A stretch of 64,000 nucleotides of DNA from Amoebophrya sp. A120. Its lineage: Eukaryota; Protista; Dinoflagellata. Each line of letters opens with the position of its first letter. Within the stretch, counting starts at the first letter, position 1. Shown here one piece after another: positions 8,751 to 64,000 of this stretch. The notes under the pieces are model-generated. The model was not told the origin of the DNA. It was given only the letters and a program-made list of their open reading frames with translations, and ran no database searches. Made by a program: the position numbers and the translations under genes. Where the stretch lies: NCBI GenBank assembly GCA_905178155.1, contig CAJINV010000009.1, positions 2,333,373 through 2,397,372 on the forward strand. Reading direction: 5' to 3'.

Positions 8751-9349
8751 TCAGAAGACCACTTCAATCACGGGCAAGCTGGTAACTGCCATCACTGCAA
8801 TGCCGCCCATGAAGAGAAACGAAGCGGATTGAAACTGCTTGGAGGAAAATGCCGCTACCAAACCGTTGATCATTCCCGGCTCCGCACGTCGGGAGTCCTC
8901 GCTGTTGAAACTGGCAATGAAATATCAAATGCAAAAATGAAAATGTCTGGGTCTGGAAGAGTGCATCTTTGTCATGCTTGTCTCGCATGACTCTCAAATC
9001 TGTCATGCACGTTACCCAAGAGCCCCACTTTTCTGTCATGCAGAAACGCAGTCTATCATGCAGAGTAGGCAACACCTAGAAGCTCAGAAACTTGCCATGC
9101 TGAGCCAGCGCTTGTGGCCTCCTCATGATACGCCACCCAGCATCACAAGTTTCCAGACCCAGACATTTTTGCATTTGATATGAAACACAAGAAGCCAATG
9201 AATATCAACGCCATCCCGAGCAGAATCAAATAGGCCATCCGCCCCGACCGAAGAAAGTCCAAAATTTCCGTTCGCAACTTGGCCAAATACGCCAAAATGG
9301 CGAATATGGCATTGCGCGCGGCCGCGCCGAGACCACCGCCCCGAGCCAT
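8751..9349 (-). CDS. Small membrane protein with two hydrophobic segments, interrupted by an introner
   Basis: MARGGG...LILLGMALIFIGFLCF continues in frame as IASFNSEDSRRAEPG...FLFMGGIAVMAVTSLPVIEVVF* after removing 8923-9180 plus one TSD. Confidence 0.7.
8923..9180. mobile_element. Introner/MITE family B (TATCAAATG..ATGTCTGGGTCTGGAA ends), 258 bp
   Basis: TIRs tatcaaatgcaaaaatg..atgtctgggtctggaa and ttccagacccagacatttttgcatttgata. TSD TGAAA at 8918-8922 and 9181-9185. Confidence 0.93.
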
Positions 9350-35678: not shown

Positions 35679-36201
35679 GTCAGGTGGTCAATAAAAACAA
35701 GTCGTAGACTTTCATGGCCCGTGTTCTCTTGGTTTCGCTTGGTCAAGAATTCTTTTACAGGGTGTTATTACTCGTTCGCTCCTGATCTCAGCGGCGCGGC
35801 GTGTTCTTCTGCTTCACATTCCGCTCCAAAAATATGGCTACAGGGACAGGTAAAATGTCATATATGTATCGCGGCAGTACGATAGGAGAGCCTAAACACG
35901 CGAACTGCCCAAAGCGTAACGGAACCTTTAACTGAGTCAATGGTTTCTATCGTCTATGTGTACATCTTCATCAAGGCACACTTCGGCAAAAAAGTGCCCC
36001 TGCCTCGTGGATCGGATTGTAACATCTTCTAGACTTTGTGATATTCGCTGACGCATGTCTTCGAAGGCTGCTTTTAATAGGCATGAGCATACTGAAAAAA
36101 TCTGAAACTCAAGCTGCATGGGGGCAGGAACAGAATGAAAATGCAAATGGTGATGCAAAAAATTAAGTGCTAAGTGCGATGTAGAACGCACTCATATCCT
36201 G

Positions 36202-42718: not shown

Positions 42719-43305
42719 TGTCTAAATCTGATACTTTTCAATTGTCTTTGCGATGGAACTTGGCGACGCATTCGTCGCTGCAACACTATTAGGGCGGACT
42801 GTTGTCCTCGTGGGTAATGTTCGTCCAAGCGCTCTCACCGAGCCACGCTTGGCGTCATGCATTTGCATACGCGCTTCCGCTTCACTCGATAAAGTAAAGT
42901 ACACCCTCTCAGTAATTAAATTTTCGCTCCAGCAACTTTCATCATCTTCACTTTTGATGAAATTTCGGATGAAAGTATAGGTAGCAACAGCGTCATGTTG
43001 GCATTTTTTCCTCCCTACTTGTACTTGCCCACTACTACGGTGTACACACTTTGTCGTGCCAGCTGGAAGGCCAACGTGCAAAACAACATCAAGTAGAATG
43101 CTACATGCACTTCAAGAATCTGGGGAGGTTGCACAGGCTTTAGAACTCCGCAACGCACACCGGTGTGCTCGTGCGTTCAGCTTCAGGCAGAAAGTGTCTC
43201 CTGATTTACAAACGCCAATGATTGCGAGTGTCCTGTCCTCGTATATAGTACATCTTCATCTTCGCCGTCATCTATGGGTCGATGTCTTCCACGACATGAT
43301 GCACT

Positions 43306-43628
43306 TATCAAAGTGAAAAATCCCCCCTCCCCACATCGAAAAGGTATGTTTCTGAAAATTTGTGTTGCTGATTTGAGGTCACAAATCACGTCTGTCTTGC
43401 AAGAAGACAGGCGCAGAGGCTTCCGCACCATTATGGACGCGATTTGGCATGCTGTTGCGCCTAGGGGGCACCCGTTTGCAATGCTAAGCAACTAGACCTA
43501 TACGCCCCTACCTAGGCCGAGGATCTGGCTGCGATGCCTTACTGCAAGACAAATCCGATTTGTGTACCCAAATCCTGCATCACAGATTTCCATTTCGATA
43601 TGGGGAAGGGGGATTTTTCCTTTTGATA
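43306..43628. mobile_element. Introner/MITE family C, 323 bp, in non-coding sequence (probable UTR)
   Basis: tatcaaagtgaaaaatcccccctccccacatcg ... cgatatggggaagggggatttttccttttgata. TSD GCACT at 43301-43305 and 43629-43633. Interior is clearly similar to 25486-25807. Confidence 0.92.
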
Positions 43629-46713: not shown

Positions 46714-48049
46714 CTTGAGACAAGTACAACAGCGAGTAACAAGAACAACTGGAATTCGCGGCGCACTATGATTTTTATCCTCGAGATGGTCGTGGTTCTG
46801 TGATTACACGAGAAGTCGGATGAAGCTTTAGCTTTGGGATCAAAATTACGCCGTAGGTTTGCCAAGCGACTGCTCACTCTACAGATACAGATACAGAAAT
46901 TTCTTTCGCAGGGTGTGGTGGTCGGCGGTGGCCTCTTATCATGTGGCTCGATAGAACGGGGCAGGGAACGACGCAACGCTTTGCACCACGGGCACACGAA
47001 TCTGGGCAATCTTTGTTTGTCCAATCTCTAGAAATTTCTTTGTTTGTCCTACCTGCAACGAATTCTCGAGCCTATCCCCTCGACCACACAACACAAGCAT
47101 CACGACCACGACGTCTAAGTATGCGCTCGGTCGATGACGCTGAATGCAGATGAAACAGAGGAAGAAAAAACTCATGTAAAACCGTTTTCACACGAGGAGT
47201 CGCTTTCTCTCCTTCTTTGTCCACGAAAACGAAATCAGGTAGTTAGCTCTCTATTCGCGGTTCTTTCGACAATATATGCCTCCGTGTCCTAATTGCCCAT
47301 GAATTCATTGAAGAGCTTGTAGTAACTAACTGTCAGCACTGTGTGCTTTTCTGTTTTATTTTTCTTTTTTCTTGCGCATTTGCCATCTATGTTCATGTCC
47401 ATGAAAAATACACGGTAGCTTTGTTCAGTCAATGTCACTTGGTGACCAATAAATTCGTGACAAATCCTTCAAAATTTGACTGCTGGCCTCCTATTCCCAG
47501 TGTACATTCAGTCGTAAAAAGTAGCGTAGGGCAGATTCATTTTTTCAAAAACAATGCAAGAAACGACTTTGGAGGCCGCGACGGTCATTGTTGTTGATTC
47601 TGTAAATTCTTTGAATTTTTATCTGAAACTACTTAGCGAACCTGTGCAAGAAGAGTGAAAAAACTGATTCCCGAAACTTGGAACTGCTATCGCCATTGAG
47701 TCTAGTATTTGGTTTGAGTAAAAAGCTGTTCTTTTTCTGACTATAATTGGTTCAGTAATTTCCGTTGTTTGTTGAAGTTGTAACGAGTAAATTGACTTGT
47801 TCTTGTTGCAAAGTGTAGTATAGAAAGTAAAGTAGTTGTAAATCATAATTGCACAAAGCGTTGTGACTTTTTCAGTTTTAAATATTGGTAGTGATTTGGA
47901 CCAACTTTTTATCGGCCAAGAAAATCGAAAAAAAATCCGGTGGCGCGGCGAAACTGTAGAGGCCAGAGCCAACCAACCTAAGGGGGGCGATTCCCGATTC
48001 CCGAATTTTGCATTGCTCAAAATCGATTGTGCATTCCCGCAGACGCGGA

Positions 48050-48690
48050 TTGCACAAAATCGATTTTGCATGATTGCACGAAACCGAATCCCGCAAAATC
48101 GATTTTGCATTGCACAAAATCGATTTTGCATTGCACAAAATCGATTTTGCGTTGCACAAAACCGAAGCCCGATTTTGCATTGCACAAAATCGATTTTGCA
48201 TTGCACAAAACCGAATGCCGCAAAATCGATCTTGCATTGCACAAAATCGATTTTGCATTGCACAAAACCGAATGCCGCAAAATCGATCTTGCATTGCACA
48301 AAATCGATTTTGCATTGGACAAGATCGATTTTGCATTGCACAAAACCTAGTCCCGATTTTGCATTGCACAAAATAGATTTTGCATTCCCTCAGACGCGGA
48401 TTGCACAAAATCGATTTTGCATATGCACAAAACCGAATCCCGCAAAATCGATTTAGCATTGCACAAAATCGATTTTGCATTGCACAAAATCGATTTTGCA
48501 TTGCACAAAACCACATCACGGCTTTGCATTGCACAAAACCGAATCCCGCAAAATCGACTTTGCATTCCACAAAATCGATTTTGCATCGCACAGAACGCAG
48601 ATTGCACAAAATCGAATCACGGAGGCGCGGATTGCACAAAACCCCTCCTCCAGACGCGCAATCCCGCAGATTGCACAAAATCGATTTTCC
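48050..48690. repeat. 21-bp minisatellite TTGCACAAAATCGATTTTGCA
   Basis: Tandem and variant copies containing the palindrome AAAATCGATTTT; the same palindrome is dispersed across the whole 47885-50960 element. Confidence 0.92.
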
Positions 48691-49267
48691 ATTCCCCCAG
48701 AACGCAGCGCCGACCAAAAGGTCGGCTTTGTGCTGGCCACAGGTTCGCCGTTGTGGGTCGCGCAATCGCTGTCGAAGGCCACACAATCGCCCGACCACAC
48801 AAAATCGATTTCGCAGCTTCCCAGGTCCGACCGAATCGAGCGGCTGCGTGGCTCAATATCGAGGCGGCGCGCCACGCAATCCGCCGGGCCGACGGACTAG
48901 GGGGGAGAGCTTCCATCCCGCTATGCGCCTTAGCGGATCTCCCACAAAATCGATTTTGTGCGTCCGCCCTTTCTTCGCGGATGCAGTCTCCCACGCCAAT
49001 GCCTTACCAACCCCCGTCCCAGCCCGCGCCCTATGAGGTACGGGCAACGAGCCCTACCGGCCACAAAATCGATTCTGCAGCCCCTCAACCCTATGGACAA
49101 CGTCGGCACCTTGCCGGACATTCGATTTTCCGAAGAGATCTGGACTTCCGGAAAGATCTCGGGAGATCGCTGCGGTCCGGATTTTCCGACTTCCGGAAAA
49201 TAAAGCTTCCTAGAAAATAGCAGAAAATCGATGTCGTGCCTCCATTACTATTCAATAGTAGCGAGAT

Positions 49268-49677
49268 CGGACCAAACCTGGTCCATACCATCGGCGGAGG
49301 CAGTTGCTTACTATCCAGTTGGTAATCTGCTGCCAAAAATCCAAAAAAAATCCGAAGGCAGTCGCACTCGAGGTGTCGCACACAAAAATACGATTTGTTT
49401 TGTGTTGCGTCCCGAGCAAAATAGTAATTACTATTGAATAGTAACCAACTGCCTCCGCCCATGGTATGGACCAGGTTTGGTCCGTCTTCGTTACTATTGA
49501 ATAGTAACTCCTGCGCACTTTTGGCGCACACTTGGGCGCACTTTTGGCACACAGAAAATCGACTTTGGTGCGCCTCCGAATCTCTTGAAAATGCAAGCGC
49601 TCGGATTTTTGGCAGCAGATTACCAACTGGATAGTAAGCAACTGCCTCCGCCGATGGTATGGACCAGGTTTGGTCCG
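49268..49677. repeat. Perfect 75-bp inverted repeat (49268-49342 and 49603-49677) with a third partial copy at about 49448-49484
   Basis: CGGACCAAACCTGGTCCATACCATCGGCGGAGGCAGTTGCTTACTATCCAGTTGGTAATCTGCTGCCAAAAATCC and its reverse complement. Confidence 0.9.
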
Positions 49678-51264
49678 TTCTCCGTAGCAATGAAGCAGAA
49701 AAGCGATTTTCCGCCTCGGTTTTCGATTTCGAGGACTTGCTGATGTCCCGATCTCGATTTTCGATTTCGGAAAATTCCGGATTTTTCGCAAACTCCGGAT
49801 TTTTTAGAATTTCCGGAATTTCCGGAACCCGGAAAATCGATTTTTCGGCAGTCCCGGAAAGTCCAACGCGCGGACTTCCGGAACACTTGAACCTCTGGAT
49901 TTTCAGGAAGTTGGAAAATCGATTTTGCCAAGCAGCCGGACTGCCACCTACCTTGCCCACATAGCAGGCCCACCACCTCTTGTGCCCGCGCCACCACTCA
50001 CGCAGACACCGCACAAGGAGCGGGCCAGCAAAATCGATTTTGCGCGCCTCGGGTGATTGAACCCACAGACAATTCTGCGAGCCTGAAGTGACTAAAGTCC
50101 CCGACTCTGCGCCCCAAGCGCCCAGCGGCTGTCGAGGACTGAGCCGCGGCACCCACCGAGGGCTGCCTTGTTCACAAAATCGATTTTGCGACCCCCGCGC
50201 CAGCCGAGAGCCTGTTCCTGGCGCCTCTACGGAGCTCAGAACACGCAGACGGGGCCCATGCCACTCCCGCGGCTTTTCAGAACTAGGGCCCGGATGTAAA
50301 TCCACAATCTCGGGAATTCTCATTGGTTTTTACGCTGGGCCAACACGGTGAATGCGCGGAACTTCATCGGGGCGCAAGTTCTGGAATTCGCGATCATCCC
50401 TGAGCCTGTAGCGTGCGACCGAAACATCGATCCAAGGCGGGCAGAGGCCCGTCCTCTGCGACTTCGCCCCACGCAATCAATTTTGCAGCTTTTGCCGGAT
50501 TTTCCGGCATTTGTGTTGGTAAAATCGATTTGCGACCACGCGCGGATTGTGTGGCCCCGCCCGAGGATAGGGCATCTTTGAGAAGCGTACCGGAAGGGTG
50601 CGCACAAAATCGAATCTGTCCGCGAGTACTCACAAAAGCGATTTTGTGAGCACCGCCCGCCGGGCGGAATATGACAACCCGGCGTCCCCAACCCGGCTGC
50701 GGGAATCTTTCTGACAGCCCGGATGCTCCAGGGTGGGGCCTAACGCCTGAGGACACCGGCAAAAACTGCCGCGAGACCGAGTTGGCGCATTCTCGAGCTT
50801 CGAGAACGCGGGCAACCGACTTCGTTTCGCGCTACTTTGCTTCGCTTGTGGACGTTAGCAGCCGCAGCACAAAGTCGATTTTTTGCGGCGTGCCTGGATT
50901 TTTTGCGGATTTTTTTCCGATTTTCTTAACATTTTTGAAGTCGGTCCAAATCAGTACTAATAAATAGCCAGGCTTACTGCGACATTTTTTGTGCGACATT
51001 TTTTGCACTTCTGCTTTCTTTCACGGCTAACTCGGGTCGCTCAGGCTCACCCATAATTTTTATAGGGCGTCATGGTCTTTATTCTCACTGAACTGTTCCT
51101 CTTAGTGTACTTTTTTTCGGCTGCTTGTGCATCGCCTTCCCCACATCATCGAAGTAAAATTTCACCGGCACCTCCTTCCCTTGTTTTTTTTCGCTTTTTC
51201 AAGAAGCCTGCTGCTGATCTTTGTTTACTCTCCCCATTTCCGCAATTCGTGCTCAACACCTGCT

Positions 51265-53666
51265 TTAGGACGAAGCAGCATGGCCGCCCCCGGTCTCGGT
51301 GGACGACGATTTCGCCGGCTTGGGCACGCCGGCCGGAGAGGCACTCGACGACGCGGCAGTCTGGATGGTGGACACCACCGCCTTTTCGCTCTCCCCCGTG
51401 GCAGCTGGTTCTGGCTTCTTCTCCCCCTCGTCTGCCTTCGCAGCCTCCGTTTCCTTGCCACTATCCACCACATGCGAGGCGGGGACCACCGGCAACTGCA
51501 CGTCCTCCTTCTTTACGGCAGTCTGCTCCGGGGTTTTCTTTTTCTTGTACATGCCGATTTCCGTGGTGGCCCACGGCTTCAAGTAGCCGCCCGCGTCTTC
51601 CGCCTTCTCGAGCAGGTCTTTTACCTCCTCCTCCGATTCCGTACCCACGGTGGCCGCCGCGTCCTCCTGCAGCGCCGCATAGGCCGCGTCACTTGGGTAA
51701 TCGTCCTCGGTCATTCCCTCCTCCAACAGGAGCGGCGTGCCGGTGGCGTTACCCGACGCGTTACCCGCGGGTGCCGCCGTGGTGGGAGCGGCCGTGGCAG
51801 CCGCCGTCGTGGCGGCGGCTGTTGCGGCGGCCGTCGTTGGGGCGGCGGTGGTCGCGATTGTGGTCGTGGTGACGGTCGTGGTGGTGGTCGTTGTAGTGGT
51901 AGTAGTCGTGGTAGTGGTGGTTGTGGTGGTGGTCGTAGTAGTTGTGGAGGTGGTGGTCGAAGTAGTTGTGGTGGTCGAAGAGCCGCTGGCAGCCGCCAAG
52001 ATCGGACTCTGGGTCACACAGTCGGGATCGTTGCACACCTGGCATGTTGTAGTTGTGGACGAGAGCTTCCAGGCAACAAAGCTGTCGGCAGGGGATCCGG
52101 CCGTTCCCGCTCATTGCACCAAAAATTTCATATTACATTCATCCCTAGAGAGCAATGGACTCCTTTGTACTTCTTTTTTAGATCGTGTTGTATGCACAAG
52201 AAGAGAAAGAGTTTTACATGATGGCTAAACATCATTTTTTCATCTTCTACAGAAACAATCAAGCTTACGCCGTCTGGTTGGTTGTTTGCCTGCATGTTCA
52301 TAGCCGAGGTGACGTTGTTGACGATTTGCTGTGTGATAGCGGCGGGGTCCACCGTGGTTGCCGGAGGTGGTGCGTCGGTAGTTGCGGGCGGTGCGGCGGT
52401 GTATCAAATGTAAAAATGTCTGGCTCTGGAAGAATTCATGTTTGTCATGCTTGTCTGGCATGACTCTTAAATCTGTCATGCCCGTTACCCAAGAGCTCCG
52501 TTTTTCTGTGATGCAGTAGTAGTAGTAGTAGTAACCATTTGACTCCTGGCGGGTTGGCGTTAGAACAGATTTAGCCTCTGCCAATACCTGGGCGTTAGAA
52601 CAGATTTAGCCTCTGCCAATACCCCTAGGTGGATACCCGATCCACTTCCTAACTATCACCCGACCGCAACCGCAGAACCGCTATCGATTTCTTACGCGCA
52701 TGTGCGGTCAGTGGGCGCTATGTGTGGCAGAACCCCCTTACCATCCAAGCCCGCGAGCAAGGTGGAAATTCGGTGTGGCCTTGACGGGTTAGTCTTACAA
52801 ACTTGCTCGCGAGCTTACTTCTGTGGCCGGTTGTGCGCTAGTACGTAAACAGCGGGTCTATCGATCACGCCCGATGATCCTAACACGATGACGGGCAACC
52901 CCGAAGCGTACCCCTTTCAAGCACTTCAGCCGACCTTAGTCCGCGCACCTTTTTCGTGCGTTTGTCATGCAGAATAGAAGAAGTGCAGTTTGTCATGCAG
53001 AAGCGCGTCACTTTTTCGATGCAGAAGTGCAGTTTGTCATGCAGAATAGGAAACACCTAGGAGCTCAGAAACTTGTCATGCTGAGCCAGCATTTGTAGCC
53101 TCATCATGAGACGCCACCCAGCATCACAAGTTTCCAGACCCAGACATTTTTACATTTGATACGGTGGTGGTGTTGGCCATTTTCGCAATGGTGAGAATCT
53201 CGGTAATGGTGGCGGAAACCTTTTCGGCGATGGCCTCCGGTGGCCCGCTGTAACTCGCAATGTCCTGCAGTTTGTCCACCACGGCCATGCGCGTCATATC
53301 GTCCATGTTTCCAAACGCACCGGCCTGCACGGCGGCGGCAGCCGCCCCCGCGATGGTCTTCATCGTGGATGCCATGGACTGGGCCACCGCGTTCTGGGTC
53401 GCATTCGGATTGCTCGAGGCGGCAATGCCCTTGGCAATCTCCGATCCCAACCAGTCCTGCACAATCTCGAGGTCTGACTTACCGGCGTACGGATCCGGAA
53501 ACCCTTGCGAACTCCCGGTCACGGCCAGAGGATCCTAGTAGTATTTATGCCATGCATGGGTTGTCCAGCAGAAAAACATCAAGAAAAGCACCATCGTCGA
53601 GGTGACAGAATCGTTTATGACTGCGAGCAGGACTAAGCAGTACAAACAAGAAAGCAAGAGCGACAT
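51265..53666 (-). CDS. Secreted mucin-like Thr-rich protein, multi-exon
   Basis: Signal-like start MSLLLSCLYCLVLLAV. Removing 52402-53161 plus one TSD gives ANTTT-AAPPATTDAPP in frame. The last exon has a short Cys motif and a poly-Thr tract at about 51860-51980. Confidence 0.7.
52402..53161. mobile_element. Introner/MITE family B enlarged to 760 bp by a nested insertion
   Basis: tatcaaatgtaaaaatgtctggctctggaa ... ttccagacccagacatttttacatttgata. TSD CGGTG at 52397-52401 and 53162-53166. Both arms align by eye with 8923-9180. Confidence 0.92.
52517..52960 (-). mobile_element. Nested insertion of about 440 bp with a (TAC)n tail; possible 3' fragment of a non-LTR retroelement or SINE
   Basis: Absent from the sister copy at 8923-9180. 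(TAG)5 tract at 52517-52533, a 33-bp direct repeat at 52556-52588/52591-52623 and a 15-bp stem at 52747-52761/52802-52816. Confidence 0.55.
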
Positions 53667-54015
53667 ATTTCGCTAGTTCTTGTGAAGCTCCTCCTGTCAT
53701 CTCTATACCTGTTTAGTCGCCTTGCGCTTGGTATTCATCAGACTACTGTGGGTCTTTTTGCCTTGCGAGACAGCCTTTTGTGCGAGCTGATGCAGAGTAA
53801 GCAAGTGGAAGTTGGCCTTTGTCGTTTCGTCTGCATCCTTCTGTAGAGTTTTTGTAGTTTTGCTACCTTCTTACGTATGTAATCTCGTTCCTGATTTCAC
53901 TTGGGAAAACAAAAACTGAAGACGATAAAATTGCGAAGAGCGAGCGGTGAGGAGCCGAATAAATTCTTGCGGGCCACGATGATTTCAAAAAGCATCAAGA
54001 CAAAGCAGAGGAGAA

Positions 54016-54804
54016 TCACATCAGACAATCTTCTACCGGTGGTGGCCCTGCTGCCTGCAGCTCGATCGTCGCCTGTGACTCGAGCAACGAGAGATCATGG
54101 TCGTTGAGGTCGAGGTATGCATTGCAAATATGTCTGTGTCTGGAAGGATGTGAACTTGTGATGCGCATTTCACAACACACACAAATCTCTCATGCATAGG
54201 CAGTAAAAGGTGCCCACTTCCTGTCACTAAAAAGAGGGATTTGTAATGCGAGTTGGGCATTGCGGATGGTTCTCGATATCTGTGATGCTAGGGCTTCCAC
54301 GACAGACCTTTTGCGTCATGCAAAAACAGCATGACAAAAATCTGCACTCTTCCAGACCCAGACATATTTGCATTTGATACGAGGGCATCAAGCTGTGAAG
54401 ACGCAGCGTTATCGGACGACTCCGCTGGTTGTTGAGCCCCTGGCGTCAGCAGGAATGCTGTCGTGTATTTATTGTGTGTTTTTTCGACATCTGTCACGTT
54501 TTCTAGCTACGACCTCTTTGAGTAGTTATTTATGCCCGTCTTTCATTAATTTTGTTCTCGCTTGCGCTTTCTATCAATCTTCGTAGGCAGTGGTCGTATC
54601 CTCGGTGGTTTCTTTATGCGTCATGGAAACCTCCAGATGAAAACCGTTTAATATCTCTATGTGAATCAAGAAAACTAGGATGGTAGTTGCTGTACATGTT
54701 TCTATTGACTCCTTTCCATTGTCGATTCGGAGAGCTTCGGCTGTGTGTGCGGAGGACAGCGAGCAACCGAGCAGCACCCGCCTGAGCATTACTGCTTGCG
54801 GCAT
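54016..54804 (-). CDS. Small putative secreted protein interrupted by an introner
   Basis: Signal-like start MPQAVMLRRVLLGCSL. Removing 54116-54379 plus one TSD gives SSQLDAL-DLNDHDLSLLESQATIELQ...CLM*. The 5' exon junctions are unresolved. Confidence 0.5.
54116..54379. mobile_element. Introner/MITE family B, 264 bp
   Basis: tatgcattgcaaatatgtctgtgtctggaag ... cttccagacccagacatatttgcatttgata. TSD CGAGG at 54111-54115 and 54380-54384. Confidence 0.92.
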
Positions 54805-55743
54805 AGCGGTTGATGTGTAGTCGTACTCGAGGAAAGTCTGTGTGCAGTTCCGTAATCGGTGCGCGGGCCCGGGCACCGAGGGAGTGTCGATCCGCCTCCC
54901 TATCTATAGGTGGTTATTCGTACTATCGCAGTTTTGTCTTGAAAAGCCAACGGATAGCCCCTCTCTCCCGATGCTTTCCCTACCTCTAGAATGTTTCGTT
55001 TGGAAAAAATGCTATCAAAAAGGATGGACAAAAAATTCAGCCTCTGCTCATCCGACGACGGGGGTTGCAGTTGCATTCGTTCTCGTTGTAAATGCTTGAT
55101 AAATGAACTGTATAGATTGATCAGATCACATATTTTCCATGTCGCATGTGAGTGTGACGAGAGCAGCATAGCATACGTGATAGAGATATCTTAAAAAGTG
55201 GGAAAGAGAAACACAACAAACAGCGACAACAACACAGACGAAGAATATTTGTAAGAAAACGAGACCAGTGAAGACTGAAAACTGGTGTTCTACTGATATT
55301 TTTGCATAGACAACAATGTAGTTGGCGTCGGGTGCCTTTCTAATCGTCTGATGCAAATGCTCCAGATCTAAGTCTCTCATCGTTCATCTCGTCTCACAAC
55401 TCGACACACACTGGTCATGGAAGATGAAGGTTTGTTGCTTTGTAAATTTCTGCACCTGTCGCTATCACTATGACGAGTAATTTGTTGACGCTTTTAGTGT
55501 AGATAATTTGCATTTTTCTGATGAGTCAATCTCACTACGGGTGAACAACATTCAAGCGAGCGAGCGCAACCTGATTTGAAGCTTCTACTGACTTTGCCTT
55601 TGGGTGCCTCTTGGATCCAACCCAAATTTCAACTTTATACTCTATGAATGCTTAAAATATAATTTGCCCCCCCATAAACCATGTAATATTTACTAGAAAA
55701 CGGTTTCTACTCGATCTCGTTTCACCTTGCATTTGATCTTGAC

Positions 55744-56049
55744 ACACCGAGCATTTGAGTATGTGATAGTGGTTTGAAGTTGCATGATCCGAGCTTTGCA
55801 ATTGACCACACCGAGCTTTGCAATTGACTACACCGAGCTTCAACCAAAATCAAAAAGACAACGATTTGCCTTCAAGTAGAAACCGATTTGCCTTCAAGTA
55901 GAAACCGAATTACCTTGCAGAAAAACCGAATTACCTTCCAGAAAGCCGAGACTCGCCTTCAAGAAAACCACAACTTATTCGCGCAGTCAGCTTCACCGGG
56001 CTAACTGCGCGAATAGTTGTGGTTTATTACAGAACCACAACTATTCGCG
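55744..56049. repeat. Two adjacent iteron-like arrays of about 21-22 bp followed by a hairpin with 25-bp arms
   Basis: (ACA)CCGAGCTTTGCAATTGAC about 3-4 times; CGATTTGCCTTCAAGTAGAAAC twice plus about 3 variants; inverted arms AACCACAAC(T)TATTCGCGCAGT at 55966-56024, with a third arm copy at 56033-56049. Confidence 0.8.
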
Positions 56050-57217
56050 AACATCCACTATTGGCCATGAACAACGACATACAATAACGGCGAATGCGAC
56101 CGCGGATCGATCTGCGGCACTACTGTTGGAGAACAACATTATTCCATTTGTTTCCTCCTCCCTTCTACGTGTTCAATGTCAGCTGCTTCAACTTTGGTTC
56201 GAAAAAGTTTTTCGTAGTGCATGCTGCCGACCACGAGAAAAACAAATGCTCAGTGATGATGCTAAGTTCGCCTAACTTTCACATCATGTTTTTATCATGC
56301 GTCAATCTGAAATGCAGAGAGACACATGATCAACCGAAGGTGCATAACGTCCAACCTTTCTATATGTTCCTCCGCGGAGATGGAGTTCATCGTAGATGTG
56401 CAATGGACATGGAGTTCATCGTGTCTAGGAAACAATAGAAAGGTAAACCGATGGAGATGGTTTGGGACGGAGAGAAAAGAATGTTCCATACAAACACTGG
56501 CAGCGCCCAGCATACCAGTGTGAAGAGATAATATCACGATGCCCCTAAGTGCGGGGCGGACAGGTGAGTTGGGAAGCCTCTTCCCTTACAAAGAAAAATT
56601 ATTTTTTTTCAAATACGAGCTCGAAGTAGCAGTAAAAAATCAAGTAGCTACGAGAGTACGGATGTACTTTCGTAACTACCTGATACAAACAGAGATGGAC
56701 GAATAGATACGTCACAAAGTAAGACCTTGCATTTTCATAATGTAAAAATAAAATTATTTGTGTGGGAGGTGGGGCACAGATGTTGTCAAGATCGCACACC
56801 TCCCGAAAAGCAGCTGTAGGCGATGGCGATGGTGTTACATCACTCATCTATCAATTTCTATAGAAATATTTTAATTTCTAAATTCAAATTTTTTGTGAAG
56901 TCGACAGTAAAAAGCCCAGTCTCCAACACCCTGGAGATCTGGGTAAAATTGAAAGTGTTGACAACGAAAGTGATCCGCGAAGGATCACTTCCGACGTCAA
57001 ATAAAACGATGTTTTTTTTCTAAAACAAAAAATTAAAACTCTAATTTTGTAGTGCGAAACGACATCTGTGATTCCAAATTCCACTGATTGCACGGGAGCG
57101 CTATCAGTCGGAAAAATACCTCACAGTACAACCATAGAGCCCATGCTAGTTGATCAAGATCAAATATATGCAAGGACTGCGACAGCTATCGAAGAAAGAT
57201 TTTTTTTCAAATCACAT

Positions 57218-57928
57218 CTACTCCTCGTTCTCCTCGACCATCCAGAACTCATCCAAGGTGTTGCACCGGCTGCGCTTCGCGGGTTCCTCCACGACCTCAA
57301 AATCCTCCGTGGCAGCGCGCGGACGCAACGCTCCCGTGCGGGAGACCAACGGGTTGTTCACGAAGTCGACCACCGGGGGGACGTACGACGACGAAGCGGA
57401 GCTGCTGCTGCTCGCAGCGCGGGTAGAACCCGCCTTACCCTTCTTCTTGTCATTCGCGTCTTCGGCCTCGGAGGAGGTGAGCAGGTTCTTCTCCGGGTAC
57501 ATGGAGGTGAACGGGTTCTGTCCGATGTACTCGTCCATCGCGTTGATACCTTCGGCCACGGCCTTGCCGGCTTTGGCGGTAACCTTCTTCTCCTTCTTGG
57601 TCGGGTCTTCCTTGATCTCGGTCGGAAACCAGGTGGTGAAGGTGACGCCGCGGATCGTGAACGACTCCTTCGAGAAGCGGATCTGCTGGGCCGACTTGTT
57701 CGGCTTGAAGTCCATGGCGATCTCACGGGCAAACGCCGTCGCGTACTTGTGGGCCATCGGGGAGGTTTTCGAACGAAGTTCGATCGTCACCGGAATCTTG
57801 ATCGGAATCACCAACATTTTTTTCAAAACAGTGGCTTCCGCGATCCACGGCTCCCCGGACTTGAGGCTGGCGGCCGGAATGGAGGTGTTGTAGTAGTCGC
57901 GGTTCAAGTCCAAGCAGTCCGCCGGCAT
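57218..57928 (-). CDS. Intronless hypothetical protein, 236 aa
   Basis: ATG-to-stop ORF with strong GC3 bias between AT-rich flanks; no family recognised. Confidence 0.7.
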   Translation of the reverse strand: MPADCLDLNRDYYNTSIPAASLKSGEPWIAEATVLKKMLVIPIKIPVTIELRSKTSPMAHKYATAFAREIAMDFKPNKSAQQIRFSKESFTIRGVTFTTWFPTEIKEDPTKKEKKVTAKAGKAVAEGINAMDEYIGQNPFTSMYPEKNLLTSSEAEDANDKKKGKAGSTRAASSSSSASSSYVPPVVDFVNNPLVSRTGALRPRAATEDFEVVEEPAKRSRCNTLDEFWMVEENEE

Positions 57929-58279
57929 CTGTGGTTTTTAGTTTGTATGTGTGTGAAAATGATCGAAAAGAAGCCCTTGAAATGATAGTAGATAGATGTA
58001 GTTTCTTGCTGTTGTTTGGGGTAGCGACTTAGACTCAGCACCACGACACAACAGGCGAAGGGCGAAATAGTGGTAGTGCGAAGCGGTCCCATATAAACTG
58101 TTTCACTGGCATTTAAAATAGAGTCTGAGCCAAGATTGTCTTTAGTCAGTGCGAGCACAGCTTCGCAGCCGTAACGCACTGACTCTGAAAAGCGGGCCGC
58201 ATCATGGTAACGCTATAAAGCAACACTCTTTTGTGCATGAACAAGCTGCACTTCGCCCTGAAAGTGCTGAGTAAGAAAA

Positions 58280-60089
58280 CTATTGAGCCTTGAATTCGTG
58301 GAAGAGAGGCGGAAGACCCCATCTTCGGATTTCGACTGGCATCCACCTTACGAACAACCATTCACGAAATTCTGGCGGAGCAAGATCAAGACTCCAAACA
58401 AATTCAGGATGTACGTCCAGCTGGGTGATCTTCTGGAACAGGACCAAGGCGAACCAGCGGCCACTCTCCGCACCCTTCAACGCGTCCTGCAGGACCTTGA
58501 GGTTGTCGCTGTAGCGGTCTTCGATCTTCATCATCGCCTTGACATGGTTCTCCTTCATCTCGACGATCTGGCGGCTGGCCTCCGCGGTCTCATTGATGCT
58601 GATCTGTAGTGCAATTTTGCGGACTGCAATTGATCTGGAACATGAGTTTGAACTTGAAAAAAAATGCTGGCATTGATGCATAATAATAATGCAGCGCTGC
58701 AATACGAACTCATGCGCATGGTACTAAAATATATGAGTGCATAAAAATTTGCTACTGCGTGGTACTAAAGTATCTGACTGCATGGCGCCAAAGTATATGA
58801 CTGCAGTGTCGATGTTGAAGTTGTAGTTGACCTTTAAACTGAAGGAGTAGATGGTGTTGATATGTAGCAATAATACCTTGGCTTTCTTGCGCTCCTTCGC
58901 GGCCGCCTCGATGGACTTCGACAGCGCGTGTCCTTCCTCCTTCTGCTGGCGATTCAGGGCGGCTTTTTCTTCCTTGTAGCGGGTGGTGAGTTCTTTCATC
59001 GAGTCCTTCAAAGCTTTGACTTCCGGGCTGCTGGTCTTCCCTTTGATCTGGGCGCACTGACCGTCGAGCTTTCCGATCTTCGGATCCTTCTTATCCACAT
59101 CAATCTTCACCTGGGTTCCCTCGCCGAACGCCGGCAAAGAGGTATCAAACACGTCGGCAAACCGCACCACAATAGTCCCCGGCATCTCCCCGCAGATGAA
59201 GACGATGGTGAACTTGAACTGGCTCTCCAACTCTTTCAACACCGCGTTCTCTTCCTTCAGCTCCTTGCTGCGGGCACCGAAGCTCCAGTCGACGTTGCAG
59301 ATCAAAAACGCTTCAGCGGGGGTCTTGGCGCACACGTAGTCACCGACCTTGGCGCCCTTGGTCTGTGATATACGTTTACGTTTAGATTGCAGCGCCAGTT
59401 GTCGTTGATACTAAAACGACAGCTACATCAACATCAACATCATCATCAACATCTTCAAGCGGAATGGCGGGCGACATTCGTTTCACTCTTGGACGCGCAC
59501 GCGCGATCATCTTTATCTTTGAGTTTGACTTTGACGTCGACATTGATAAAGATGATAGTGCGAAACCGAAAACGAATTACATGATCTATGGCCGTGTCGC
59601 CTTTCGCTTCCGCTTGAAGTTGAAGCATTGCCCCATTGTTATTGTAAAAAAGAAATGTAGATAATGATAAAGATAATGATAAAGATATACCTCCCAGGTG
59701 ACAGCACCGCGATCGATCATCATGTCTTCGCCATCATCGGAGGAGCTCGACTCCGGGTCGTCCTGGGCCGCGGGCGCCTTGATCGCCAGCTGGGTCTTTT
59801 TCTTCTTTTCATCCTTTTCCTTATCTTCCTTCTTCTTCTTCGCAGGCTTAGAGGCGTTGCGGATCACTTCGCTGATGAGGTAGGCCAAAAATCTGTTCTT
59901 GTCCGAATCCGCAGGCTCCGAGCGGATATAATTATCGCGGACTAACGATTTTACCTCACGCATTTGTTGCAAACTCATTCCCACTCCTCCTTTGCCGAGC
60001 AACGTATGAAAGATCGTTGCCAGGGTCAAGCAACGATGCGACGGCTTCGCGTACTTCAAACCCAAGTTGAACAGGCGGGTCCTGTTCAT
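58280..60089 (-). CDS. Lys-rich coiled-coil hypothetical protein, three exons, about 402 aa
   Basis: Exons 60089-59691, 59362-58877 and 58603-58280 are each a multiple of three and bounded by GT-AG (GAG|GTATAT..ACAG|ACC; AAG|GTATTA..ACAG|ATC). The first junction is the least certain. Confidence 0.6.
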
Positions 60090-60772
60090 ATTTTTGAATT
60101 GAAATAAGAATAAATGTTTGCAGAACCAGAACGAGAGCCAGAAGATGAAGAAGAAGTGCAAGTAGTAGTAGGTGAGTACAGCTGAGTTGTTGACGCAGTA
60201 TGTATTCATATGACAACGAGAGTGCCCATCTTCAGTGCTAGAGTTCTCAAGGTGGAGGCGCGCGCCCTGCGGACGCAGAGTGCAACGCACACCGAGGCAC
60301 ATCACAAGACTTTCCTACAGCTCCTGATCACTAGCGTTCGTTACAGCCTCCTTGCGAAAATATTCAACAGCGAGTAGTGTTGTGTACTACATCGCAGCGT
60401 GGCCGGAGCCACGGTCGCAGCGTGGTAATAACTCCAATTCGCAAAAACTTCACAGGCCGCTACAACTACATTTAGAAATAGAAAATCTTGCTCTTAGCAT
60501 GCAAAGCAGAAGGCGATAGCACCAGCATTGAGCACATAAGTGCACGCATGTTTTCCGTACAAGTTAGCTCGCATTTTTTACCTAAGTAGAACGCTCACTT
60601 TGCGATTTTGTCTCCAACTCTACACGCCGAGTAGTGCATGTAGATGTAGTTTTCGACGACGAGGTAGTTGCGTATGTAGTACGAGTAGCTCTAAACGTCG
60701 ACGTGGTGAACGAAGGTGAAAGCAAAGGTGACCTTAGTACAAGATATACAGTAAATAGAAAACAAGATATAC

Positions 60773-63322
60773 TTGAACAGCGACACGTAGCGGGGGTCGT
60801 CGCGCGTGGTCCCCTTTTCCTTGATCACGGTGATCCAGTAGTCCGGCACCAGGCCAATCTCGCGCAGAATTTGATGGCAGACGTTGATCTCCATGACGGA
60901 CACGATGTTTTCGCACATGCGCTGTATTGTGTTTTATTTTTTTATCGTCCAAGAATTCTATTGCAGTCGAAGTCGTACTCGTAGTATGCGCGACACATGA
61001 ACACGCTCTGCTTATTTTCATTGACGATTTAGCATGCAACACCAACAGCAACTGCAACGAAAAATACAAATATAAATTTATCTACCTGGTAGAAGTCCAG
61101 GATGTTGATCTTCTCATGCGGGTGCTTGCGTTTGTAGTCCTCCAATTCGGCAGCAATCTGAAGTAGTGGCTGATGATCCGTTGTTTTATGCAATTCAATA
61201 TCACACCTGCGGCAGAATCTGAACTTGCCCTCAGCATCACATCTGCGTTTGAAATTCTAAAATCAGGACGGGACCCGGACCCGACCCTGGCCCAGACCCC
61301 AACAGATCAACATGGTGAAGTCCGCCCAGAAGCCAACGAAGTCCAAGTACCAGCGCACGGGTGGCAAAGGGCACTTTCGGAAACATACCGCGAAGAAGCA
61401 GTCGAACCGAAAGGCCGTGGCCATCTGCAGCTCCCCAAAACAGGCAGCACGAAAAGCGCCTGCAAAACAAGCACCACCGAAAGCGGTGGCGAAAAACAGT
61501 GCGAAAGATCTGGACTTAGATGATGGCGAGGAGAAGAGCGGCTCGCTGGCGATGCCAGACTGCATCGCGTTTGGGGATGCGCTTGCAGAGAGCAGTGGTC
61601 GAAAGCGGGACGCTGGCAATTTCTACAAACTTGGTTGGTTATTGGCCACTATGACCGGACGGCGCGGAATGGACATTCGCCTTCTTCAGCGCGGCGATCT
61701 GTCGCTAACGAGCGTCCGAGTGGGGAACTCGAAGCTCGCTATCAACAAGGGCGGCCGCGGGAAACTAAAAAACGTCCCGATAGATCCACTGCCCAAGACG
61801 AAAAAATTCCTGCAGAGCATGATAGACTACATGGACTCGGCCGGATATAAAAAAACCGACGCAGTGTTTAGCTTCGGCTACGAAGCGTTTGAAAAGAAGG
61901 CGCGGGAGGTGCGCAAGGACTTCGTGCCGAAACACAAGAAGTCGTGCCCCGCCCACATCATCACGTCCCACACACCAAGGCGCAGCTTGTGCACCCACCT
62001 ACATGCGGCCGGCACAAGCCTGCGCACGATCATGGCCATGACGGGGCACTGCAGCGTCGATACGCTGCATCGCTATAATGAAGGAGATTTTACATACCAG
62101 CGTCTTGCGGCGACAAAGGTGAAATGCTAGCACCGAGGCCGACGCGACCCTTTTACTGCGAACCCGCCCTCGACAGCGACGACGACAATGTCGACGGTCG
62201 CTGCGGACATGCAAGGCATAACAGATGTGACGCTGCGTGGGCGATCAGTCCACCTTGCTCGTGCGAGGTGGACTAAACGTTCAGTTTCACTTTCACACTC
62301 ATGCTGATATATGTGGTAGTATGCAAAACTTTTCAACCGCAAGAACAAGTCCAAGTACAAGCTCGAGCACAACAACAACTACGACTAGATGCACACTTAC
62401 AAAGCCAAAATTTAAAAAAATACCTGCTCCATGATTCCTTGCAGTTTTTCACAGAAGGCTGTTTTTAATGTCGTGTTTGCTTCGTTATCTAAACGAATCC
62501 ACAACGATAATAACGAAGGAAGTTTCGTCATTAAATCGTTGTGGAAAATGAAGGCCCTGGAGAGATTTTTATTTTTTGTTTTTCATTTGTGAAGAGCTAC
62601 ATGCGGATTTGTATGAGAGTAAGTTTGTAAATGTAATTGTATCTCGAGAGAAGGTATTGGTATGATGTCACACGAGACGAATGCAAGCATGAGTGGGTGA
62701 AAGTTGAAAATAATAATGGAGAGCATCATGAAGATAAACATAGACATGAGCATGGTTATTGAAGCACAAATTTTAATCACACAATGGCACCTGAATCCGA
62801 GTTCCTTCCAGCGATTCTCACCGTGGGACTCGAAGTACATCAATCCGGCTTGCCAACTATGATTGAGGCCGACCACTTCGAAAGCGTCGCCATTGTCCAC
62901 GAGGAACATGAATCTCCTCATTACATAATTCCCGCGACACATTTCGCGATATAAAAACTCGCGGTGGCGGGTCGACCTCAGCCGGTTAAACGACGACTCT
63001 TTGATCTTGGGCATCATGCTCTTGCTCACCAGCGCACCGGGCTCGTACTTGTCCGAACGGAAGCGATCGACGAACGTCATCATCTCGTTCTTGGAGACCT
63101 GAAGTTGTAGATTTTTTCTGAAATTACATGAGAAAAATCTGATAAGCATGATGAGTTCTACACTGTTGCATCACGAAAAACACATCCATACAGAAGGGAA
63201 AAAGTACTAATGTATCGCACCTGTCCCTGCTGCCAACGGCCAACGATCATCTTGACTTCCTCCTCAGTCGGCATGTTCAAGGCCTCAGCAAGTTGGCCCT
63301 GAACGGCGGCTCCGAACTGCAT
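60773..63322 (-). CDS. Multi-exon hypothetical protein whose third intron contains the recombinase gene; 3' end unresolved
   Basis: Exons 63322-63221, 63098-62791, 62556-62424, 61157-61086 and 60921-about 60773 are all GT-AG bounded and phase-compatible (0,2,0,0): ...WQQGQ|VSKNEMM...ELGFR|AFIFHND...LQGIMEQ|IAAELEDYK...LDFYQ|RMCENIV... Confidence 0.55.
61312..62130 (+). CDS. Tyrosine recombinase (XerC/D / phage-integrase-like catalytic domain) with a basic N-terminal tail, 272 aa, intronless
   Basis: Full catalytic set: R (LLATMTGRRGMDIRLL), K (AINKGG), HxxR (SHTPRRSLCTHL), H (AMTGH) and Y (DTLHRY). The box II region parallels XerD PHxLRHxFATHL..G.DLRxVQxLLGH....TQIY. Confidence 0.92.
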   Translation: MVKSAQKPTKSKYQRTGGKGHFRKHTAKKQSNRKAVAICSSPKQAARKAPAKQAPPKAVAKNSAKDLDLDDGEEKSGSLAMPDCIAFGDALAESSGRKRDAGNFYKLGWLLATMTGRRGMDIRLLQRGDLSLTSVRVGNSKLAINKGGRGKLKNVPIDPLPKTKKFLQSMIDYMDSAGYKKTDAVFSFGYEAFEKKAREVRKDFVPKHKKSCPAHIITSHTPRRSLCTHLHAAGTSLRTIMAMTGHCSVDTLHRYNEGDFTYQRLAATKVKC

Positions 63323-63465
63323 TTTCACACAAACTTCTGAAGAAAACTACGAAGAAACACTGTCGCTCCTACGGAATTTTTGCTGAAATATTGATGATTT
63401 GTCGCTGCGTTTGACATGAAATTCATGGAAAATTGACAGAAATTCACAACCTCCAAAATCCCCGC

Positions 63466-63596
63466 TCTGGAATAATTCAAGGATCTGAGCTCAAAAACCA
63501 TGGCTTTTCATGAAAATTCCAGGAATTCATCATTAATTTTGCGAATATTTGCCAAAAGTGATGGCTTTTGAGCTCAGATCATGGAATTATTCCAGA
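63466..63596. repeat. 43-bp imperfect inverted repeat upstream of the 63322 gene
   Basis: TCTGGAATAATTCAAGGATCTGAGCTCAAAAACCATGGCTTTT versus the reverse complement TCTGGAATAATTCCATGATCTGAGCTCAAAAGCCATCACTTTT (5 mismatches); no TSD. Confidence 0.8.
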
Positions 63597-64000
63597 ACGA
63601 TGATTTTCGGGATCATGCATTTCAAGCAAAAAATGATGAAAAGCGAAGCAAAAAGTAATGAAGTCGCGCGTAGATTTTTGCTGATCACAGGTTGAAACTT
63701 CATGTATTTGCGTTGTATTTTGCTGGAGGATCTACTGCGAATTCTCTTGGAAATGATGTCTGTTGAGGGGAAAGTTGGCATATGGGGGAACGGTTACAGT
63801 CTCCAGTCGAAGAGTACATGGAAGGGAGCTGGTGTATGGAAATGGATATCGCACAACGAAAATATCAGTGACCGAGTTGCGGAATGGATCGAATACGACC
63901 GAGGACAAAGTGCTTGACTACCTGAAGACGCCTCTTGTATTGCGCGCATTTTCTCACTCATCGCACTTCTCCGCTGCTACGCTTTTTCACTTTCTCCTCA

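What the first reader, a model, noticed from the sequence alone, without database searches (positions are those of the whole stretch)
55650..64000. Candidate large tyrosine-recombinase-encoding mobile element or endogenous virus in a dinoflagellate-like genome
Seen: after about 55.7 kb the sequence changes character. There are iteron-like arrays and a hairpin, then three orphan genes with only canonical GT-AG introns and no introners, an intact bacterial-style tyrosine recombinase (the only convincing plus-strand gene in 64 kb) and a second long inverted repeat. Known: tyrosine recombinases mobilise Cryptons, DIRS elements, fungal Starships and some Polinton-like viruses. No reverse transcriptase, capsid or polymerase is visible here, and the motif spacing resembles XerC/D. 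Inference: this is the left part of a cargo-carrying, spliced-gene mobile element of a possibly undescribed class; its right end lies outside the window.
Basis: partly seen in the sequence, partly recalled or inferred. Interest (0 to 1): 0.88.

Follow-up and report, generated by a model that had tools for sequence, protein, structure and literature searches.

The report
Recombinase transposon with long inverted ends
This stretch of a likely parasitic dinoflagellate's genome begins sharply at a 405-base repeated end, carries an intact DNA-recombining enzyme and three predicted spliced genes with no relatives found, and is likely a jumping element built like the Tec and Sardine transposons of ciliates but with a different insertion footprint.

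Summary
In two DNA runs the assembly graph branches at 55643 and again after 56047. A second flank joined at 55643 ends in the exact reverse complement of the 8 bases before 55643 (about 1 in 36,000 by chance). The simplest reading is a 405-bp terminal inverted repeat (TIR) with an 8-bp target duplication. The TIR ends in a lox/FRT-like palindrome (17-bp arms, 8-bp asymmetric spacer). The tyrosine recombinase keeps all six inferred catalytic residues but has no predicted core-binding domain. Its only named homologues are three Amoebophrya AT5.2 genes. No transposase, capsid, polymerase or reverse transcriptase was found in 106 frames. Both runs break 1,774 bases past the window, which would make the element about 10.5 kb. 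The closest architecture is that of ciliate Tec/Sardine/Thon transposons (long palindromic TIRs, recombinase, DDE transposase), but those duplicate TA. An endogenous virus is unlikely. Not shown: the right end, an empty site, splicing, expression, or the enzyme that inserts it.

The parts
55635..55642 (+). Left copy of the inferred 8-bp target-site duplication (TTATACTC)
   Evidence: The second flank joined at 55643 in run X2 ends in the reverse complement of this 8-mer. A 10-bp duplication does not fit. Chance about 1 in 36,000; the 8-mer occurs once in the window.
55643..56047 (+). Left terminal repeat, 405 bp, inferred to be a terminal inverted repeat
   Evidence: Graph branch at 55643 (record depth 110.8 against flank 35.5). 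A record of depth 68 ends at 56047, where another contig diverges; interior contigs begin at 56018 in both DNA runs.
55789..55840 (.). Subterminal 22-bp tandem array (2.4 copies); likely protein-binding repeats
   Evidence: function inferred
55862..55944 (.). Subterminal 21/22-bp tandem array (3.5 copies)
55965..56025 (.). Outer palindrome (16-bp core arms, 8-nt spacer) that begins with a third, imperfect copy of the site arm
   Evidence: (I18)
56008..56049 (.). Candidate recombinase site: 17-bp perfect inverted arms around an 8-bp asymmetric spacer, at the inner edge of the terminal repeat
   Evidence: (I9). Summed contig depth is 333 here against 35.5, and another contig matches 56009-56046 with a net-zero indel across the spacer. 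Its use by the recombinase is inferred.
57218..60089 (-). Predicted orphan gene C/D, four exons (60089-59691, 59362-58877, 58603-58415, 57928-57218), about 594 aa; the last exon may be a separate gene
   Evidence: Phase-0 GT-AG joins and high GC3. No hit for the last exon among 1.84 billion representatives or in the Atlas, and none for exon 2 among longer proteins.
60773..61157 (-). Predicted orphan gene B, exons 61157-61086 and 60921-about 60773; both ends uncertain
   Evidence: GC3 0.79 and 0.88, GT-AG intron of 164 nt; no family hit
61312..62130 (+). Intronless tyrosine recombinase, 272 aa: Lys/Ala-rich unstructured N-terminus (aa 1-72) and catalytic domain; no core-binding domain predicted
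   Evidence: PF00589. R117, K141, H220, R223, H246 and Y255 are present in 9 of 9 aligned rows. Model pLDDT is below 50 for aa 1-72. Fold matches are phage integrases, XerA and Cre at 10-20% identity.
62790..63322 (-). Predicted orphan gene A, exons 63322-63221 and 63098-about 62790; 3' end uncertain
   Evidence: GC3 0.71 and 0.75, GT-AG intron of 122 nt; no family or viral hit
63439..63623 (.). Degenerate 185-bp palindrome upstream of gene A; role unknown
   Evidence: Depth equals the rest of the interior. Rfam matches are all far below gathering score.

Best explanation
This is likely the left 8.4 kb of a DNA transposon with 405-bp inverted ends, predicted to be about 10.5 kb long, that was likely inserted by a staggered-cut transposase leaving an 8-bp duplication, while its tyrosine recombinase would act on the palindromic site at the inner edge of each end. 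Shown: the sharp left boundary, the 405-bp repeated terminus, the reverse-complement 8-mer on the second flank, the palindrome and the intact recombinase. Inferred: that the second flank is this element's own right end. Inferred: that a DDE-type transposase binds the subterminal arrays and inserts the element; it would be encoded in the unseen 1.75 kb, hidden among the orphans, or supplied by another copy. Inferred: that the recombinase recombines the two inner sites. In one copy these face each other, so recombination would flip the interior. In a replicative cointegrate they are in direct orientation, so it would resolve the two copies, the role proposed for the Tec1/Tec2 recombinases. That the element is a mobile TIR element is about 0.9 likely; the division of labour is about 0.6 given that.
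For: Boundary and second flank, 8-mer test. The repeat stops at the end of the inner arm of the 17-8-17 palindrome, as expected if the site defines the inner edge of the TIR. YR sites are described as inverted repeats of 11-13 bp around 6-8 bp (PMC3212892, passages). The host contig runs unbroken to 55672 in both DNA runs, so no other terminus there shares the left 8-mer with a different upstream flank, which argues against a fixed crossover core. Read contigs differ from the window at 32 of 7,893 (X1) and 40 of 7,982 (X2) interior positions but at 0 of 3,711 and 0 of 1,253 flank positions (Fisher p 9e-6 and 0.005), so a second variant of the whole interior exists. Three dispersed, catalytically intact paralogues (56-77% identical in the core) occur in Amoebophrya AT5.2. 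Precedent: Sardine has 425-bp palindromic TIRs, a YR, a DDE transposase and two hypothetical ORFs (PMC3464196, passages).
Against: No DDE transposase is detectable in the visible 8.4 kb (0 of 106 frames), and the predicted unseen interior is only about 1.75 kb. The right end and an empty site were not seen. Copy number is unclear: interior depth is 69-76 against 40-48 in the flank in X1, but 32-40 against 35.5 in X2. Of the 12 coding differences between window and X2 contigs only 2 are synonymous (expected 0.29 under neutrality, P 0.28), so these variants give no sign of purifying selection and one copy may be decaying. The DNA contigs overlap the element side of the junction by 30 letters, one short of the tool's bridging rule; only the X3 contig bridges it widely, and it has 25 differences and 24 gaps over 54696-55908. 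Arms of 17 bp are longer than the typical 11-13. All ciliate precedents duplicate TA, not 8 bp.
Confidence: 0.55

Rival explanations
1. The recombinase is itself the integrase. The element would excise as a circle whose junction is right end, 8-bp core, left end, and would integrate by crossover in a matching 8-bp core, so the 8-bp repeat is a recombination overlap and no transposase exists.
For: The recombinase is the only recognisable enzyme. 8 bp is within the usual YR spacer range. The predicted circle junction has CATA-8 bp-TATG, the spacing seen in E. coli dif as printed in PMC2731167; this is a 4-base, post hoc match. A minority of YR-bearing cryptophyte PLVs have 7-23-bp flanking repeats (10 of 232 in cluster C1; PMC12220804, passages). 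Little room is left for a transposase if the element ends near 66.1 kb.
Against: The host half-sites around the 8-mer do not resemble the element ends (read). No second terminus shares the left 8-mer (unbroken contig to 55672). A better-formed candidate site lies at the inner edge of the TIR. YR insertion is generally reported to leave no TSD.
Confidence: 0.22
2. It is a non-autonomous TIR element of an 8-bp-TSD superfamily that captured the recombinase and orphan genes as passengers; the recombinase would have no role in movement.
For: The window holds other non-coding TIR-bounded repeats, such as 47884-50961. The island exons have host-like GC3 and host-like A/C-rich intron ends. There is no purifying signal between variants.
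Against: No host-like gene family among the passengers. A recombinase-type site sits exactly at the TIR edge and recurs at other loci. All eukaryotic YRs known to PMC3212892 are encoded by mobile elements.
Confidence: 0.12
3. It is an endogenous Polinton-like virus, or a reduced derivative of one, with TIRs and a YR.
For: PLVs have TIRs of several hundred bp and often a YR; Oxyrrhis PLVs have 230-860-nt TIRs and a YR (PMC12721341, passages). Viral orphan genes are common (general knowledge).
Against: No capsid, ATPase, pPolB or helicase hit in 106 frames (Pfam covers PLV capsids poorly). No relative in IMG/VR for three orphan exons, and the one locus found with the recombinase profile was a weak hit in a phage-like contig. 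PLVs are described as 14-40 kb, intronless, with 5-6-bp TSDs or none. GC is near the host's.
Confidence: 0.09
4. The island is a chimeric join, a contaminant, or an ordinary host gene cluster.
For: The window differs from the read contigs by 0.4-0.5% only inside the island, and the reason is not settled.
Against: Flank and terminus lie on one contig in X1, X2 and X3. Depth is of the host's order. Homologues are in an Amoebophrya genome. No relative in one genome per prokaryote species (0 of 5 candidate stretches). The duplicated 8-mer marks an insertion.
Confidence: 0.02

Closest known systems
Ciliate composite transposons Tec1/Tec2/Tec3 (Euplotes crassus) and Sardine/Thon (Paramecium tetraurelia); PMC3464196, PMC5405496, PMC3212892 (passages read; the Tec primary papers were not available)
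   Same: Alveolate host; long TIRs (Sardine 425 bp, Thon about 700 bp) with internal palindromes; a tyrosine recombinase; further ORFs of unknown function, some with predicted introns; similar size class (Sardine 6.7 kb). By eye, the Sardine end in Text S1 also carries long inverted arms around a short asymmetric centre and shares a 9-mer with this end (AT-rich, post hoc).
   Different: 8-bp duplication instead of TA; no IS630-Tc1 DDE transposase detected in the visible part; the TIR here is not palindromic as a whole. Homology between this recombinase and the ciliate ones was not tested.
Cryptons (PMC3212892, passages)
   Same: DNA element with a YR and no reverse transcriptase; short direct repeats at the ends.
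   Different: Cryptons have no TIRs and have 4-6-bp direct repeats; CryptonF has a GCR1_C domain. Here there is a 405-bp terminal repeat, an 8-bp duplication and a catalytic-domain-only YR.
Polinton-like viruses with YR, such as Oxyrrhis marina OmPLV and cryptophyte cluster C1 (PMC12721341, PMC12220804, PMC10120064; passages)
   Same: TIRs of several hundred bp, a YR, many orphans, dinoflagellate hosts.
   Different: No capsid, ATPase or pPolB seen; predicted spliceosomal introns; predicted size below 14 kb; host-like GC; a perfect 8-bp duplication.
Starships (PMC11162782, passages)
   Same: A YR plus several other genes in a low-copy eukaryotic element.
   Different: Captains are DUF3435 proteins at the 5' end. 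This YR hits PF00589 only, is 272 aa long and lies 5.7 kb inside. Starships lack long TIRs.
Yeast 2-micron plasmid Flp/FRT (named in PMC3212892; details recalled)
   Same: A recombinase site with an 8-bp asymmetric spacer and a third arm, placed within each of two long inverted repeats, so that recombination inverts the interior.
   Different: 2-micron is a free plasmid without target duplication; Flp has an N-terminal DNA-binding domain. The likeness is architectural only.

Membership tests
Tyrosine recombinase superfamily | Catalytic R-K-H-R-H/W-Y residues and the lambda-integrase catalytic fold | tested here: met
   assignment of K141 as the catalytic lysine is inferred
XerC/XerD | Score above the family cut-off; N-terminal core-binding domain | tested here: not met
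   29 and 20 bits against cut-offs of 335 and 330; aa 1-72 unstructured in the model
Tec/Sardine/Thon composite transposons | Long TIRs with internal palindromes | tested here: met
   405-bp repeated terminus with nested palindromes; inverted orientation inferred from the 8-mer
Tec/Sardine/Thon composite transposons | Tyrosine recombinase ORF | tested here: met
   relationship to the ciliate enzymes not tested
Tec/Sardine/Thon composite transposons | IS630-Tc1-mariner DDE transposase | tested here: inconclusive
   0 of 106 visible frames; the right part is not visible
Tec/Sardine/Thon composite transposons | TA target duplication | tested here: not met
   An 8-bp duplication fits. A TA reading needs a pre-existing 8-bp direct repeat around the TA.
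Crypton | No TIRs; 4-6-bp terminal direct repeats | tested here: not met
   405-bp terminal repeat and 8-bp duplication; definition
Starship | DUF3435 captain at the 5' end | tested here: not met
   No DUF3435 hit; YR is internal; definition
DIRS/Ngaro/VIPER | Reverse transcriptase and RNase H | tested here: not met
   None in 106 visible frames; the right part is unseen
Polinton-like virus | Major capsid protein and packaging ATPase | tested here: inconclusive
   No hit, but no PLV capsid profiles were available and the one orphan model failed (pLDDT 37)
Polinton-like virus | 14-40 kb, intronless genes | tested here: inconclusive
   Predicted 10.5 kb and five predicted GT-AG introns; neither confirmed
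Merlin (8-9-bp TSD, TIR 24-462 bp) | Terminal 5'-GG and DDE_Tnp_IS1595 domain | tested here: not met
   The end starts with TA; no such domain in the visible part; definition
Any active transposon | Empty site, several insertions with different TSDs, or excised forms | not testable with these tools
   No whole genome held; no empty allele in the contigs of X1 or X2, which drop rare variants

The most novel reading that the evidence does not exclude
A superfamily of eukaryotic DNA transposons not yet described, resident in Syndiniales: long TIRs carrying lox-like sites, an 8-bp target duplication and no DDE transposase of any known family. It would move either through its catalytic-domain-only tyrosine recombinase or through one of the spliced orphan proteins acting as a new kind of transposase, and it could be one of the missing autonomous mobile elements of a genome full of non-autonomous TIR elements.
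Probability: 0.3. Interest if true: 0.82.

Novelty: new variant of a known kind. Interest (0 to 1): 0.64.

Why it matters
Tyrosine recombinases are rare in eukaryotes. In the papers read, the combination of long palindromic TIRs, a recombinase and extra ORFs outside viruses was described for ciliates, with TA duplication. A similar design with an 8-bp footprint in a dinoflagellate-lineage parasite would mean either that the design is older and wider in alveolates or that it arose twice. The proposed resolvase role of the Tec recombinases becomes directly testable here, because a short enzyme and a crisp 42-bp candidate site lie in the same element. It also bears on Amoebophrya genome biology: PMC7789003 (passages) reports two putative transposases in one strain and none in the other despite abundant MITE-like introners, so an autonomous TIR element with an unrecognised mobilising enzyme is what such searches would miss. 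A link between this element and introner movement is not shown.

Tried and rejected
No own genome is held, so copies and the right end could not be read directly. RNA: no holder is on record as RNA, and raw runs X8-X10 laid 0 reads even on the host part, so they are no test. Low-depth pieces in X3 and X6 (depth about 3-5; one runs 27 bases into a predicted intron) cannot show expression or splicing. Related loci: metagenome scans gave none (0 of 376 stretches) or 2 loci of 71 stretches, weak matches; the one read (L002) holds a 413-aa integrase in a bacterial-type context. Viral scans gave one weak phage-like locus or none; prokaryote genomes gave none. Orphans: no hit in Pfam, PHROGs, NCBIfam or PDB sequences beyond chance level, representatives, Atlas or the longer-protein search (weak by its own note). 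The single-sequence fold of the last exon failed (pLDDT 37) and was not searched. Rfam miRNA matches on the 185-bp palindrome are far below gathering score and were rejected. A single gene running across the recombinase was considered: the obvious donors and acceptors do not agree in phase (by eye), so it is left open. A dif-like junction was kept only as a weak point for the first rival. The tree of 9 homologues has no outgroup and long branches, so no origin is claimed. The Tec3 paper is not held. The PLV survey PMC10120064 lists three Amoebophrya genomes among those screened and names them nowhere else in the stored supplement, but that file is cut, so this is not evidence of absence. Look-ups of earlier findings by place, by sequence and by the first word set were blank.
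Full report
Host. The window is eukaryotic, with kinesin, MatE, mitochondrial carrier, BTB and kelch genes all on the minus strand and very high-copy intronic repeats. The only named homologues of the recombinase are three genes of Amoebophrya sp. AT5.2. One-strand gene clusters and non-canonical introners are the described traits of Amoebophrya (PMC7789003, passages). I infer an Amoebophrya host; the strain was not determined and no whole genome is held.

Observation. The arrays, the hairpin, the recombinase and the second palindrome are all present and exceed chance. Three minus-strand gene models can be built with five GT-AG introns that keep phase. Their exons have GC3 0.71-0.91 (host genes 0.60-0.79), and their introns end in the same A/C-rich ...CAG as the canonical host intron at 53841-54695. 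No read confirms them. High-copy introners are absent from the island (0 of 18 bins above depth 204, against 4 of 12 host bins above 40,000). The claim 'only canonical introns' is partly circular, since the models were built on GT-AG.

The left end. Contigs of DNA run X2 give the main result. The host contig (depth 35.5, no differences) ends at 55672. A 42-letter record at 55643-55684 has depth 110.8, and another contig of at least 255 further letters joins at 55643. The last 8 letters of that other flank are the reverse complement of the 8 letters before 55643 in the window; under local composition this has probability 2.8e-5. If an element has inverted ends and a direct target duplication, its right end read backwards looks exactly like this. 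The repeated path continues at depth 68 to 56047 and then splits into the window's interior (depth 32) and another sequence. In both DNA runs the interior contig starts at 56018. So the terminal repeat is 55643-56047, 405 bp. The inverted orientation and the identity of the second flank are inferred, because the right end is outside the window. X1 and X2 are one sample by record and may be the source of the assembly, so they are not independent support. Of 10 loose ends and 21 pieces only 6 and 8 were shown; a third terminus suggested by the threefold depth may be among the rest.

The right end, predicted. The last interior contig runs 1,774 letters past the window in both runs (2,663 long with 889 on the window; 7,313 long with 5,539 on it), so both break at window-equivalent 65774. 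If this mirrors the break at 56018, the right repeat spans about 65745-66149, the element is about 10.5 kb, and about 1.75 kb of interior is unseen. A shared bubble or another repeat could also cause the break; I put the prediction at about even odds.

The inner site. At 56008-56049 two perfect 17-bp arms flank an 8-bp asymmetric spacer. A third, imperfect arm lies at 55965-55983, and a second palindrome with an 8-nt spacer overlaps it. The repeat ends within two bases of the end of the inner arm. Summed depth over the site is 333, and another contig matches 56009-56046 with four substitutions and a one-base insertion and deletion on either side of the spacer, so the arms and spacing recur at other loci. 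Tyrosine recombinase sites are described as 11-13-bp inverted repeats around 6-8 bp (PMC3212892). That the enzyme uses this site is inference.

The recombinase. It is intronless and 272 aa long. The search with the single protein found 5 relatives among 453 candidates, and the profile search 7 among 6,315; both covered only lengths of about 130-480 aa. In the core they are 38-58% identical to the window protein, and R117, K141, H220, R223, H246 and Y255 are kept in 9 of 9 rows. The model is confident over about aa 75-260 and unstructured over the Lys/Ala-rich aa 1-72, so there is no predicted core-binding domain. Structural neighbours are phage integrases, XerA, integron integrase and Cre at 10-20% identity, with no clear nearest family. 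It is far below the XerC/D cut-offs.

Two variants. Interior contigs differ from the window at 0.4-0.5% of positions in both runs, while flank contigs show none (p 9e-6 and 0.005). The changes are mostly transitions (31 of 42), so they are unlikely to be assembly errors. X1 contigs break at sites where X2 differs, and X1 interior depth is about 1.5-fold the flank; X2 interior depth equals the flank. A second near-identical copy is the simplest cause, but the depth conflict is unexplained. Of the 40 differences listed (42 in all), 12 fall in predicted coding sequence and 2 of these are synonymous, or 1 of 11 if the third exon of gene C ends at the earlier donor. This matches neutral change and gives no support for selection on the orphan frames. 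One difference falls in the codon after the catalytic tyrosine, where the window has Asn and the 8 other rows have Ile or Val, so the window copy may be the more decayed one.

Mechanism. A perfect 8-bp duplication beside host sequence with no likeness to the element ends is the usual footprint of a staggered-cut DDE transposase (general knowledge; PMC8101967). YR-bearing PLVs mostly lack TSDs. I therefore favour two enzymes, as in Tec1/Tec2, where the YR is thought to resolve transposition intermediates. The weak point is that no transposase is visible and little room may remain. The main rival is insertion by the recombinase through an 8-bp overlap. Flanks of further copies would decide between them.

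Comparison and novelty. Sardine has 425-bp palindromic TIRs, a DD35E transposase, a YR and two hypothetical ORFs; Thon and the Tec elements are similar (PMC3464196 and PMC5405496, passages; part 1 of 21 of Text S1). This element is built like them but fails their TA duplication and has no detected ITm transposase, so I do not file it as a member. It also fails the tests for Crypton, Starship, DIRS and Merlin, and lacks visible PLV hallmarks. Searches for a description: 'Amoebophrya' with 'tyrosine recombinase' gave 2 papers, 1 listed (PMC12130899), whose passages concern introners; 'Syndiniales' with 'tyrosine recombinase' gave 0; 'recombinase' occurs 0 times in the main text of the two genome papers searched. 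The library omits most subscription journals, and supplements of the genome papers were not read. Also seen as passages only: PMC10120064 (plus supplement searches), PMC12721341, PMC12220804, PMC3627910, PMC2731167, PMC11162782. Details of Flp/FRT are recalled. One unchecked AI note describes a YR with an inverted pair of lox-like sites in Cladocopium-like DNA; it is a lead, not support.

Verdict. A real, sharply bounded mobile element with a recombinase family for which I found no description; a new variant of the TIR-plus-recombinase design known from ciliates. Interest 0.64. If the unseen part holds no known transposase, it becomes a candidate new superfamily (probability 0.3, interest 0.82).

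Noticed in passing
window 47880-50965: A 3.08-kb non-coding element with imperfect inverted ends (47884 onward, ending at 50961), an apparent 4-bp AAAT duplication, a 21-bp array (48049-48592) and an internal 80-bp inverted repeat (49263-49342/49603-49682). It is multi-copy in X1 (depth 288-483 against about 45). An X6 contig joins 47879 to 50964, skipping it, as a very long non-canonical intron or an empty allele would.
   Followed up: partly
window 54696-55908: A spliced contig of run X3 (RNA by guess) runs from inside the terminal repeat into the adjacent host gene, with 25 differences and 24 gaps over this piece. The element end may supply the host gene's 5' region, or the contig may follow a related terminus through the graph.
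   Followed up: no
window 59506-59556: A small hairpin (12-bp perfect arms) inside a predicted intron. Its core 59512-59546 matches contigs from other loci in X2, and its bin reaches depth 353 in X3; possibly a small introner-like repeat.
   Followed up: no
window 33700-35700: A non-coding stretch with 42-bp tandem repeats (34270-34419), palindromes near 33948-34017 and similar short motifs at both ends; probably another non-autonomous element between host genes.
   Followed up: no
window 8923-9183, 20302-20557, 52401-53162, 54104-54391; and 18607-18921, 25495-25808, 43305-43628: At least two introner families recur across the host part. At 52401-53162 one appears to contain a further insertion.
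   Followed up: no
window 13934-16723 (-): A 930-aa open frame with seven mitochondrial-carrier repeats matched, more than the usual three; possibly fused or tandem carriers.
   Followed up: no
window 58716-58806: Three 23-41-bp-spaced imperfect direct repeats inside the second predicted intron of gene C.
   Followed up: no
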